Virus record (IMG/VR): IMGVR_UViG_2718217789_000003
DNA: 64,000 bases
Direction: 5' to 3' (one strand)
DNA from: a virus
Lineage: Duplodnaviria > Heunggongvirae > Uroviricota > Caudoviricetes
The position numbers are program-made. This document shows, in pieces, positions 27,001 to 30,000 of this stretch. Every line of letters starts with the position of its first letter. The first letter of the stretch is position 1.

Positions 27001-30000
27001 GTATGGACTGTATGTCACGGACACACCGGAAAAGACATCATGCCCGGTAAAACGTATACCGAAGCAGAATGCAAAGCCCTCCTGAATAAAGACCTTGCCA
27101 CGGTCGCCAGACAAATTAACCCGTACATCAACGTCGATATACCGGAAACAACGCGCGGCGCTCTTTACTCGTTCGTTTACAACGTGGGCGCTGGCAATTT
27201 CAGAACATCGACGCTTCTTCGCAAAATAAACCAGGGCGATATCAAAGGCGCATGTGATCAGCTACGGCGCTGGACATACGCTGGCGGTAAGCAATGGAAA
27301 GGGCTGATGACTCGCCGCGAGATTGAGCGTGAAGTCTGTTTGTGGGGGCAACAATGAGCAGGGTAACCGTTATTATCTCCGCTCTGGTTATCTGCATTAT
27401 CGCCTGCCTGTCATGGGCTGTTAATCATTACCGTGATAACGCCATCGCCTACAAAGAGCAGCGCGATAAAGCCACATCCATCATCGCTGATATGCAGAAG
27501 CGGCAACGTGATGTAGCAGAACTTGACGCCAGATACACAAAGGAGCTTGCTGATGCTAATGCGACTATCGAAAGTCTCCGTGCTGATGTTTCTGCTGGGC
27601 GTAAGCGCCTGCAAGTCTCCGCCACCTGTGCAAAGTCAACGACCGGAGCCAGCAGCATGGGCGATGGAGAAAGCCCAGGACTTACAGCAGATGCTGAACT
27701 CAATTATTACCGTCTCCGAGGTGGAATCGACAAGATAACCGCGCAGGTTAACTACCTGCAGGAGTACATCAGGACGCAATGCCTGAAATAATTTTTTTTG
27801 CAAATCACAAAGTCCATTTAATGAGCCTCGCGATGCGGGGCTTTTTGCAATAAATGCGTACCGCAACGCATGTTTTTTACACCGAACCTGCCCCTTTGGA
27901 ATGGGCCTTTGAGGATACCAGTTAGTGCTGGCGAGCCTCGGTGGGCTGGTTTCCTGTGCGGCAAAGGTTCATTTCAAAGAGTAGGTACACGCTATGAAAT
28001 CATTAACCCTCTTCAATCAACCAATCCGTATCGGTGAAGATGGCATGATCTGCCTCACTGATATGTGGAAAGCCAGTGGTAAAAGTGAATCTGAATCTCC
28101 GTACCACTACCTGCGAAACAAGCAGACCAAAGAGTTCTTGGCTGAGCTGGAGAAAAACCACGAATCTGTGGTTTTTACGGAACGCGGTGCGCACGGTGGA
28201 ACTTATGGCGGAAAGTTCGTTGCTTATGATTACGCAGCATGGCTAAACCCCGGATTTAAATATGCAGCCTATAAAGTCCTCGATGATTACTTCACCGGAG
28301 AGCTTCATCATCGGAACAGCTTAAGTGCGCAGCTCAACATGAAATGTCATGAGTTTGATCAGAAAAAAGACATGGCGAGCTTCTGTGGACAAGGCCTCGC
28401 GGCATGGCGCTACACGAAACCTGGTTTGATCGCTGAAATTAACTCCCTGGCTAACCAGTTGCAGATTTCGATCCCCGGGCTTCCGGGATGAGTGATCGTG
28501 TCATTGAATGCGCCTCCAGAGCGGGGCGCGACTTCTCAGAGTTCATGAAAGGCGAGAAGGGTATGATGGAAGCATTGGCCTCGGTGGATGAGTTTGGCGA
28601 GCAGCTGCGCCTCAACGGCTGTGTCAATCATCACTTTGTTAGCTACATGATGCGGAACTCGATCATGCAGGCATTCATGGACATGGCAAAAGCCGAGAGG
28701 AAAGAAGAGCGCCGGCGTAAGCGAGCGGAAGCAAAAGCGAAGTAGCCATTACAAAGCCCATCTACTGGTGGGCTTGATAATGGCTTATACCCTACACGGG
28801 ATAACTTAACTGATATCCCTTTTAACGGATAAAGGTATTCAAGCCTGACACATCATGCGCTGTATCGTCGCTGTATTTCCGCATTAACCATGACCGTAGC
28901 CCGACGGGGAATTCCTTCTGCGCGAGTGTGCGGGGATAATCAAAAACGATACACACCGGGGTTTACCGCGTAAACGGAGCGCGGCGTTCTCCCCTCATGG
29001 TCGCCCGTCCGGTGCGATGGTGGAAGAAACTGGAATCTGTTCAATAAAAAAACTGCCGTGTTGGAGTCACAGCAGTAATGTACTGATTGGGTAGAAGATT
29101 ATTATTGTTATGCTTTATTTTTATTCTATATGGCTGATTATTTCAATTCGGAATTAATACAGCTAATGTCTGTGAGTTTTTATAAATTCAGCAATATAAA
29201 GAAATAGTTATATGAACAGCCATCGCAGAGCATACTGTGTATCATTCTTTTTTATAGTCAACTGACGGGCATATTTTATGTCTGCTGCCAGCTCCCGGCG
29301 GCAAGATTCAATGACCCACGCAGAAAAATTTTCTGAACCTTTCTGGTCAAGAGCGATGTTAATTTGTTCAATCATCTGGTTTGGAAATCGGATGTTGCGG
29401 GTTGTTGTTCTGCGGGGCCGGTTTTTCGATGACATTTTCTTTCCTCTGGTGACAAGCTATATGGCGAGGATTTTACATGGCTGTGCTTCGTACGTTACCG
29501 GGCAGAATCAAAACTCTGAACACCCGGCGGGTGAATATTCTGAAGGGTGAACAGCGTCGTGTCAGTGGCAGTGCACGTGTTTCCCTCAAGCGTCATATCT
29601 GGCTCAGGGATGCCGGGCAGTGCTGTCTCTGTGGTCGTGTGGTTGACCTCTGTGACAGTGAACTCGATCACCGAATTGCACTTCAGTTCGGTGGTGGTAA
29701 TGAGGAGACGAATCTCTGGACGCTCTGTACCGAATGCCATCGACAAAAGTCTGCTCGTGAAGCGGCGGGTGGTATGCCGGACCCGACGCTGCCGGAGGTG
29801 TCCGGAGGTCATGGCAGGGCAGACGATATCATCGGACTGTGACCCGCCCCGGGGGGGGGGGGATCATCCGGCGAAAAAAACGATCGCCCTGGACACCGCG
29901 CCCCCTCTCACGCAGAGAAAAAATTCCCGTTTCAGGGCAGTTAACATGTTAACTGGCTGCCCGGGCATTTTTGCGGTTTTTATCTTTATTATTCAGTTTG

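What the first reader, a model, noticed from the sequence alone, without database searches (positions are those of the whole stretch)
29040..29476. Antisense ribbon-helix-helix-like moron in an AT-rich island between lysis and packaging genes
ORF 29208..29435 is on the minus strand, opposite to the whole late operon, and has a strong RBS. Its RNIRFP...helix...helix pattern resembles RHH (CopG/Arc-type) DNA-binding proteins. It sits in markedly AT-rich DNA (29040-29280) and is divergent from the HNH gene with only about 40 bp between starts. It could be a regulator or antitoxin-like element inserted into the late region.
Basis: partly seen in the sequence, partly recalled or inferred. Interest (0 to 1): 0.55.

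Follow-up and report, generated by a model that had tools for sequence, protein, structure and literature searches.

The report
Small ribbon-helix-helix gene beside phage cos
The minus-strand ORF is a real, strongly conserved gene of the already catalogued but uncharacterised YlcI/YnfO (DUF3950) family, which phage lambda itself also carries, and it most likely encodes a small ribbon-helix-helix DNA-binding regulator rather than an antitoxin.

Summary
ORF 29208-29435 (-) exists, has a GAGGA ribosome-binding site, lies 41 bp from the divergent HNH gene, and runs into DNA of about 30% GC. The window is an Stx2c phage 2851-like prophage of E. coli O157:H7. RefSeq already names the gene "YlcI/YnfO family protein" (PF13132 DUF3950).

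It is under strong purifying selection. Only codons 1-47 are shared with lambda, DLP12 (ylcI) and Qin (ynfO). In those elements the gene is also antisense to the late operon and is the last gene before cos. NC_001416 does not annotate lambda's copy (48109-48303).

I found no toxin partner and no defence-system hit. The AT-rich part is only the allele-specific C-terminal tail, the 3' UTR and an intrinsic terminator.

Published ChIP shows FNR binding 67.5 bp upstream of ylcI/ynfO. The window allele lacks that box. The DNA target and biological role remain unknown. This is an ordinary-to-moderately interesting member of a known kind.

The parts
29208..29435 (-). Coding sequence of a 75-aa YlcI/YnfO (DUF3950) family protein.
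   Evidence: ORF listing. Family hits: PF13132 E 3e-17, NF041551 E 5e-10, phrog_949 E 2e-32. RefSeq annotates it as WP_000095736.1. Purifying selection is shown.
29295..29435 (-). Conserved module, codons 1-47: basic N-terminal arm, the beta-strand motif TTRNIRFP, helix A, a G-S loop and helix B. This is the predicted ribbon-helix-helix domain.
   Evidence: This is the only stretch homologous to the lambda, DLP12 and Qin loci, at 85-87% DNA identity, and the homology ends exactly at the ATG. Invariant residues are I15, R16, I25, N36, F37, W40, V41 and C45.
29208..29294 (-). Allele-specific C-terminal tail, codons 48-75, with lower GC.
   Evidence: Tails differ completely between alleles. AF2 pLDDT for this part is 55-62. 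GC is 0.40.
29442..29446 (-). Shine-Dalgarno sequence GAGGA, 6 nt upstream of the ATG.
   Evidence: Read directly from the sequence. Allele 783R2 has AAGGA at the equivalent position.
29077..29207 (-). AT-rich 3' untranslated region of the minus-strand unit.
   Evidence: GC is 0.29 over 29045-29207. No ORF of 30 aa or more lies here.
29045..29076 (-). Intrinsic terminator of the minus-strand unit: a 9-bp stem (29076-29052) followed by TTTTTTT.
   Evidence: Terminator scan. The hairpin is recovered in the RNA fold of 29035-29215 (-), z -2.7.
29436..29476 (.). The 41-bp divergent intergenic spacer. It holds the HNH ribosome-binding site (+) and a candidate -10 hexamer TAAAAT (29475-29470, minus strand) for the YlcI-like gene.
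   Evidence: Sequence. TAAAAT is conserved in four HNH-type phages, but the overlapping HNH start region could explain that conservation. I did not identify a good -35 element.

Best explanation
The ORF encodes a small DNA-binding protein of the ribbon-helix-helix (Arc/MetJ-type) class and belongs to the YlcI/YnfO (DUF3950) family. I infer that two chains pair their N-terminal strands (T12-R13-N14-I15-R16-F17) into a two-stranded sheet that reads the major groove. In that model I15 and F17 face the hydrophobic core, T12, N14 and R16 face the DNA, the basic arm (KNRPRR) and the helix-B N-cap (N36-F37-S38) hold the backbone, and the variable C-terminal tail modulates oligomerisation or partner binding. 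The gene is a self-contained leftward transcription unit (ribosome-binding site, ORF, AT-rich 3' UTR, intrinsic terminator) lying antisense to the late operon at the cos-proximal end of the phage chromosome. It can therefore only be expressed well when late transcription from pR' is off, that is, in the lysogen or early after entry. It most probably acts as a transcriptional regulator, probably a repressor, which is the commonest role of such proteins. In lambda-type alleles its promoter has the geometry of a class II FNR-dependent promoter. The window allele has the HNH gene in that position and has lost the FNR box. Shown here: the gene is real and under selection, its family, its conserved position, its terminator, and a fold prediction consistent with ribbon-helix-helix. 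Inferred: dimerisation, DNA binding, regulatory role and timing of expression. Unknown: the DNA target and the phenotype.
Confidence: 0.6

Rival explanations
1. It is a packaging accessory factor: a small DNA-binding protein that acts at or near cos together with TerS and HNH, for example in cos recognition or termination.
For: The gene is always the last one before cos, in phages with two unrelated packaging modules: Nu1-type in lambda, DLP12 and Qin, and HNH+TerS+TerL in 2851 and BP-4795. In one phage satellite (L051) the YlcI-like domain is fused in one 129-aa protein to a copy of the TerS N-terminal DNA-binding domain. That domain is 60% identical to residues 2-51 of the window's own TerS, E 2e-17.
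Against: The gene is antisense to the late operon, so it would be silenced by head-on late transcription exactly when packaging occurs. Orthologues under purifying selection sit in chromosomal, non-phage contexts with no terminase nearby. The family is small and patchy, with 102 representatives in 1.84 billion proteins. From my own knowledge, lambda packaging has been reconstituted without any such factor. The fusion was found on a single contig, and related satellites carry the domain alone or with other tails.
Confidence: 0.12
2. It is the ribbon-helix-helix antitoxin of a toxin-antitoxin or defence module inserted in the late region.
For: Many ribbon-helix-helix proteins are antitoxins, and MazE7, MazE9, HicB and TacA are among the fold hits. 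The C-terminal tails are variable, as in antitoxins. In Qin, ynfO is followed by the co-oriented ydfO (DUF1398).
Against: In the window a terminator follows the gene and there is no co-oriented ORF of 30 aa or more on either side. No DUF1398 homologue exists anywhere in the window. PADLOC finds nothing. Neighbours are inconsistent across loci. In Tatumella the gene stands alone.
Confidence: 0.06
3. It is a lysogen-expressed factor aimed at other mobile elements: superinfection exclusion, or control of or by phage satellites that carry the same domain.
For: Its position and orientation are typical of prophage accessory genes such as bor and lom. The same domain sits in the regulator position of P4/PICI-like satellites (int, AlpA-like gene, primase) next to palindromic boxes. 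Up to 16 matching places per E. coli genome were found, although that count is for the whole 1.2-kb query 28700-29900 and not for ylcI alone.
Against: There is no experimental hint. The satellite boxes GTG-N6-CAC are absent from the window and from lambda. The strand residue at position 14 differs (N in phages, G in satellites), which suggests different DNA specificities.
Confidence: 0.1
4. It has no protein function: the conserved 141-bp block is a DNA-level boundary or linker sequence for module exchange, and the ORF is incidental.
For: Homology between loci starts exactly at the ATG and ends at codon 47, with unrelated DNA on both sides. This looks like a mosaic junction.
Against: Half of the synonymous sites differ between the window and lambda alleles, while only 7% of the non-synonymous sites do. 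The same pattern holds in four Tatumella species. Diverged members at 32-50% identity keep the same residue pattern.
Confidence: 0.04

Closest known systems
YlcI (DLP12) and YnfO (Qin) of E. coli K-12; Pfam PF13132 DUF3950; NCBIfam NF041551
   Same: Same family. Residues 1-50 are about 85-90% identical. The orientation is the same (antisense to the late genes), and so is the position as the last gene before cos and the terminase small subunit.
   Different: The C-terminal tail, 3' UTR and upstream DNA all differ. In the window the HNH gene occupies the place where K-12 and lambda have about 200 bp of cos-proximal DNA holding an FNR box. The family has no assigned function. The Pfam model covers only residues 21-50 and misses the strand.
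Arc and Mnt repressors of phage P22 (ribbon-helix-helix, immI region)
   Different: There is no significant sequence similarity. There is no ant gene under its control, no divergent arc/mnt-type operator, and the genome position is different.
Ribbon-helix-helix antitoxins (MazE7, MazE9, TacA, HicB C-terminal domain) and the NikR N-terminal domain
   Same: They share the predicted fold class and give the best structural matches.
   Different: The window gene has no toxin partner and no metal-binding C-terminal domain. It is a single-gene unit closed by its own terminator.
Lambda morons bor and lom
   Same: They are independent transcription units embedded in or beside the late operon of lambdoid phages, and bor lies in the same Rz-to-cos interval on the same strand. 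That they are expressed from the prophage is stated in PMC7067206.
   Different: Those genes encode outer-membrane or lipoproteins. This gene encodes a predicted cytoplasmic DNA-binding protein.

Membership tests
YlcI/YnfO family (PF13132 DUF3950; NF041551) | The protein scores above the curated cut-off of the family models. | tested here: met
   PF13132 scores 62.6 bits against a cut-off of 25. NF041551 scores 39.2 bits against a cut-off of 30. phrog_949 gives E 2e-32.
YlcI/YnfO family (PF13132 DUF3950; NF041551) | The core NIRFP...NFSAWVIE.C is conserved. | tested here: met
   I15, R16, I25, N36, F37, W40, V41 and C45 are invariant across 25 members down to 28% identity.
Ribbon-helix-helix (Arc/MetJ) superfamily | The topology is an N-terminal strand, helix A, a short loop and helix B within about 45 residues. 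| tested here: met
   AF2 gives extended residues 13-18, helix 19-32, loop 33-36 and helix 37-54, with pLDDT 71-88 over the core. DSSP calls no strand, as expected for a monomer model.
Ribbon-helix-helix (Arc/MetJ) superfamily | The structure is significantly similar to solved members of the superfamily. | tested here: inconclusive
Ribbon-helix-helix (Arc/MetJ) superfamily | Sequence or profile similarity to known ribbon-helix-helix families. | tested here: not met
   There are no Pfam ribbon-helix-helix hits for any of 25 members at E up to 10. PDB HMM searches find nothing. hhalign against Arc gives E 0.017 and probability 2.7%.
Ribbon-helix-helix (Arc/MetJ) superfamily | An intertwined homodimer forms a two-stranded antiparallel sheet that binds DNA. 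| not testable with these tools
   Only monomer prediction was available, and there is no binding assay.
Type II toxin-antitoxin antitoxin | A toxin gene is adjacent and co-transcribed. | tested here: not met
   No co-oriented ORF of 30 aa or more flanks the gene, and a terminator follows it directly. PADLOC gives no hit. No partner is conserved across loci.
Prophage moron (independent accessory transcription unit) | It has its own terminator. | tested here: met
   A 9-bp stem followed by T7 lies at 29076-29045 on the minus strand.
Prophage moron (independent accessory transcription unit) | It has its own promoter and is expressed in the lysogen. | tested here: inconclusive
   The window allele has only a TAAAAT -10 candidate, with no good -35 element. 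The homologues ylcI and ynfO have an FNR box bound in vivo (PMC1802558), and ylcI is transcribed in K-12 (PMC12288877).
Prophage moron (independent accessory transcription unit) | Its base composition differs from that of the surrounding genes. | tested here: met
   The tail and 3' UTR have GC 0.29-0.40 against 0.51. The conserved core, at 0.46, is close to the surrounding level.

The most novel reading that the evidence does not exclude
YlcI/YnfO could be an oxygen-responsive (FNR-driven) ribbon-helix-helix regulator kept at the extreme cos-proximal end of lambdoid phages, including lambda itself. In this reading it would link anaerobic gut conditions to phage or host gene expression or to cos function. 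Phage satellites would have recruited its DNA-binding module as their regulator and, in at least one case, fused it to a copy of the helper's TerS DNA-binding domain to act on helper packaging sites.
Probability: 0.12. Interest if true: 0.65.

Novelty: new member of a known kind. Interest (0 to 1): 0.38.

Why it matters
The gene belongs to a family present in most E. coli genomes, in K-12's cryptic prophages, in Stx phages and, unannotated, in the lambda reference genome, yet it has no assigned fold or function. Assigning it to the ribbon-helix-helix DNA-binding class has practical consequences. It points out that the FNR site mapped in 2007 to 'nohA/nohB' is correctly placed to drive ylcI/ynfO, and it gives simple, testable experiments on a model phage. 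If the protein regulates prophage or host genes in Stx phages, it could bear on lysogen physiology in the anaerobic gut. As it stands it is a routine annotation refinement, not a new kind of system.

Tried and rejected
- **PDB sequence searches:** phmmer and profile searches found nothing relevant.
- **Direct comparison with Arc and Mnt:** BLASTP was not significant. hhalign against Arc and Mnt was weak.
- **Pfam scan:** all 25 family members, scanned at E up to 10, matched only DUF3950 and no ribbon-helix-helix family.
- **PADLOC:** no hit for the protein.
- **Rfam:** a scan of 26000-31000 at E up to 1 gave nothing relevant.
- **afdb50 fold library:** not available.
- **Promoter search:** the scan hit at 29565-29537 is not conserved in YYZ-2008 or EH2246, so I rejected it.
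- **Operator search:** no repeat near the gene stood out. GTG-N6-CAC boxes occur only in the satellites. There is no FNR-like box within 28700-30200.
- **DUF1398, YbcW, Bor and GnsB partners:** tblastn found none in the window.
- **Lambda 'orf-64' in the literature:** this is a different gene, lambdap73, lying between Q and S.
- **Lambda ribosome-profiling paper:** I looked for it under PMC3718152, an id recalled from memory, and nothing is held under that id.
- **General lambda transcriptome search:** unproductive.
- **Hits in unrelated taxa:** many genome-contig hits (Streptomyces, Cohnella, Pedobacter and others) lie on contigs of about 3.5 kb or 48.5 kb. I judge these to be lambda control-DNA contamination and did not count them as taxonomic spread.

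Full report
**What is there**

The window is a prophage of the Stx2c phage 2851 type in E. coli O157:H7. The stretch 28700-29900 is 99.8% identical to phage 2851 and 100% identical to several O157:H7 chromosomes.

It has a GAGGA Shine-Dalgarno sequence 6 nt upstream of the ATG. Its start lies 41 bp from the start of the divergent HNH endonuclease gene at 29477. Upstream on the plus strand are the holin, lysozyme, Rz, a KilA-N/ORF11CD3 protein and an 85-aa ORF. Downstream are HNH, TerS, TerL and the protease-capsid fusion.

The AT-richness is real: GC is 0.31 for 29040-29280 against 0.51 for the window. It belongs to the last 28 codons (0.40) and the 3' UTR (0.29), not to the conserved part of the gene (0.46).

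**It is a catalogued family**

The protein matches Pfam PF13132 (DUF3950, E 3e-17), NCBIfam NF041551 (YlcI_YnfO_N) and phrog_949. RefSeq already names it "YlcI/YnfO family protein". A full-text search found no functional study of DUF3950, YlcI or YnfO.

**It is a real gene**

Between the window and lambda alleles, 52% of synonymous sites but only 7% of non-synonymous sites differ in the first 50 codons. In four Tatumella species, chromosomal orthologues show pS 0.45-0.81 with pN 0.016-0.04.

The family is small, with 102 representatives at 50% identity among 1.84 billion proteins. Many apparent members are noisy reads. Many hits in unrelated genomes sit on contigs of about 3.5 kb or 48.5 kb, and I judge them to be lambda control-DNA contamination.

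**Conserved position, and lambda has it too**

In DLP12 (ylcI) and Qin (ynfO) the gene is likewise antisense to the late genes. It is divergent from the Nu1-type terminase small-subunit gene, with the roughly 390-bp cos region between them.

Lambda carries an intact 64-aa copy at 48109-48303 on the minus strand, whose ATG is 199 bp from the right cohesive end. NC_001416 does not annotate it. The "orf-64" of the lambda literature is a different gene.

In phage records the gene occurs in two arrangements:
- lambda-type, next to cos and Nu1 (about 70 records);
- HNH-type, as in this window (83 records).

DNA homology between the two arrangements covers only 29295-29435, which is codons 1-47, and it stops exactly at the ATG. 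The C-terminal tails are unrelated between alleles. The window's AT-rich tail and 3' UTR are therefore an allele-specific replacement, not an island that brought the gene in.

**Fold**

AlphaFold2 was run with a 25-sequence alignment. It gives an extended N-terminal segment, helix 19-32, a four-residue loop containing Gly33, and helix 37-54 onward, with mean pLDDT of 75.

- Foldseek against the PDB gave no E-value below 0.36. Its top 50 are almost entirely ribbon-helix-helix proteins: Arc, NikR, NikA, MazE9, HicB, CdbA, TacA and plant TCP domains.

Sequence methods do not reach significance. Even so, hhalign puts NIRFP on Arc's NLRWP. The Pro-to-Gly spacing is 15 residues in both, and the invariant N36-F37-S38 falls where Arc has V33-N34-S35 at the N-cap of helix B. 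The Arc sequence and the role of those residues come from my own knowledge.

I take the ribbon-helix-helix fold as likely, at about 0.8. Dimerisation and DNA binding are inferred. The Pfam model spans only residues 21-50, so it leaves out the strand.

**Transcription unit**

On the minus strand the ORF is followed by about 130 nt of AT-rich 3' UTR. Then comes a good intrinsic terminator, a 9-bp stem at 29076-29052 followed by TTTTTTT.

I could not identify a convincing promoter for this allele. A TAAAAT hexamer at 29475-29470 is conserved among HNH-type phages, but it overlaps the HNH start region, which could explain the conservation. The scan hit at 29565-29537 is not conserved.

For lambda-type alleles the picture is clearer. 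A perfect TTGAT-N4-ATCAA box is centred 67.5 bp upstream of the ATG. A GACAAT hexamer is placed so that the box would sit at -41.5 from the transcription start, which is the class II FNR geometry.

Grainger et al. found FNR bound to exactly this sequence, in vivo by ChIP-chip and in vitro by EMSA. They assigned the site to nohA/nohB. Judging by their primers, their lacZ fusion was to the noh start codon. They saw low activity and little FNR effect (PMC1802558). The table entry names only nohA/ydfO and nohB, so ylcI and ynfO do not appear in it. I infer they were not yet annotated.

An RNA-seq survey lists ybcW-ylcI as a convergent excludon in at least half of K-12 samples, so ylcI is transcribed (PMC12288877). 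The window allele has no FNR box.

**Context elsewhere**

- **Phage satellites** (integrase, AlpA-like gene, P4-type primase). A YlcI-like gene sits divergent from the replication operon. It is preceded by GTG-N6-CAC palindromes at -102, -79 and -33 and by a TATAGT -10 hexamer.
- **Satellite L051.** The domain is fused to a copy of the TerS N-terminal domain that is 60% identical to the window's own TerS, E 2e-17.
- **Chromosomal, non-prophage settings.** Copies occur in Tatumella (between a malic enzyme and a transporter), in Rouxiella (after cytochrome bd oxidase genes), and on another contig between a TonB-dependent receptor and CopC.
- **Other island or prophage-remnant settings.** One copy follows cdtABC and another lies beside a type I restriction-modification system.

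No partner gene is conserved. PADLOC is silent, and the window has no DUF1398 homologue.

**Interpretation**

The best reading is a small ribbon-helix-helix transcriptional regulator encoded by an independent unit that is antisense to the late operon. It would be expressed when late transcription is off. Its target is unknown.

- The cos-accessory idea rests on position and on one fusion protein. Orientation and the chromosomal orthologues weaken it.
- The antitoxin idea fails for lack of a partner.
- A purely DNA-level role fails on the codon-substitution pattern.

**Side observation**

Immediately left of the finding, 28855-29040 is a non-coding element with no annotation. Matches to the wider query 28746-29290 occur in 4112 of 5426 complete E. 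coli genomes. I collected 85 distinct copies of the element in viral contigs. About half have ylcI 41-890 bp to the right, always on the opposite strand.

On the plus strand, which is the late-transcript sense, it folds into a long hairpin (28862-28952) and a short one (29007-29035).
- 98.8% of cells are paired, and 0 of 500 shuffles reach that value.
- There are compensatory GC-to-UA changes in the short hairpin.
- There are 280 G-U cells against 10 A-C cells, so pairing falls to 87.5% on the other strand.

Rfam has no match. I could not check whether this element corresponds to a published prophage sRNA such as PasB.

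Noticed in passing
window 28855-29040 (+), with hairpins at 28862-28952 and 29007-29035: A conserved, unannotated non-coding element lies here. Matches to the wider query 28746-29290 occur in 4112 of 5426 complete E. coli genomes, and 85 distinct copies of the element occur in viral contigs. It has a plus-strand RNA structure supported by wobble-compatible and compensatory changes: 98.8% of cells paired, and 280 G-U cells against 10 A-C cells. Rfam has no match. It sits in the late transcript between the lysis genes and the ylcI/terminase region. I could not check whether it is the same as published prophage sRNAs such as PasB.
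   Followed up: partly
L002 (lambda NC_001416) 3110-3304 (-), which is lambda 48109-48303: The lambda reference genome carries an intact 64-aa YlcI-family ORF, identical to K-12 YlcI, 199 bp from the right cohesive end. NC_001416 does not annotate it.
   Followed up: yes
L002/L003/L004, centred 67.5 bp upstream of the ylcI/ynfO ATG (lambda about 48364-48377): A perfect FNR box TTGATCTGCATCAA lies in class II geometry to the ylcI/ynfO start. It is the same site that Grainger et al. 2007 found bound by FNR and assigned to nohA/nohB. The window allele lacks it.
   Followed up: partly
L002-L005, about 150 bp upstream of the ylcI ATG, between cosQ and the FNR box: The palindrome GATAATGATTATCATC matches, by my count, 15 of 19 positions of the Fur-box consensus (recalled from memory). 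It is conserved in lambda and Qin, and DLP12 and E. albertii (L005) carry the variant GATAATAATTATCATC.
   Followed up: no
L051 4714-5103 (+); also L052, L053, L067 and L068: P4/PICI-like satellites carry a YlcI-like gene divergent from their primase operon, with GTG-N6-CAC boxes at -102, -79 and -33. In L051 the domain is fused to a copy of the TerS N-terminal domain that is 60% identical to the window's TerS.
   Followed up: partly
window 29843-29860 and 29940-30065: Between HNH and terS lie a G/C palindrome (CCCGCCCCGGGGGGGGGG) and four copies of AAATGTTAAC in direct and inverted orientation. These are plausibly the cos cleavage region and TerS binding sites.
   Followed up: no
L009-L050 (genome-contig hits): Lambda right-end sequence appears on contigs of about 3.5 kb or 48.5 kb in assemblies labelled Streptomyces, Cohnella, Pedobacter, Arcanobacterium and others. 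I take this to be sequencing control-DNA contamination. It also inflates the protein family with frameshifted 'members'.
   Followed up: partly
window 27994-28491 (+): A KilA-N plus ORF11CD3 (anti-repressor-like) gene lies in the late region. It gives a PADLOC hit to the candidate defence protein PDC-S22, E 1e-8.
   Followed up: no
window 28744-28785 (+): A strong 17-bp-arm hairpin starts at the stop codon of the 85-aa ORF and has no T-run after it. It is shared with an E. albertii prophage.
   Followed up: no
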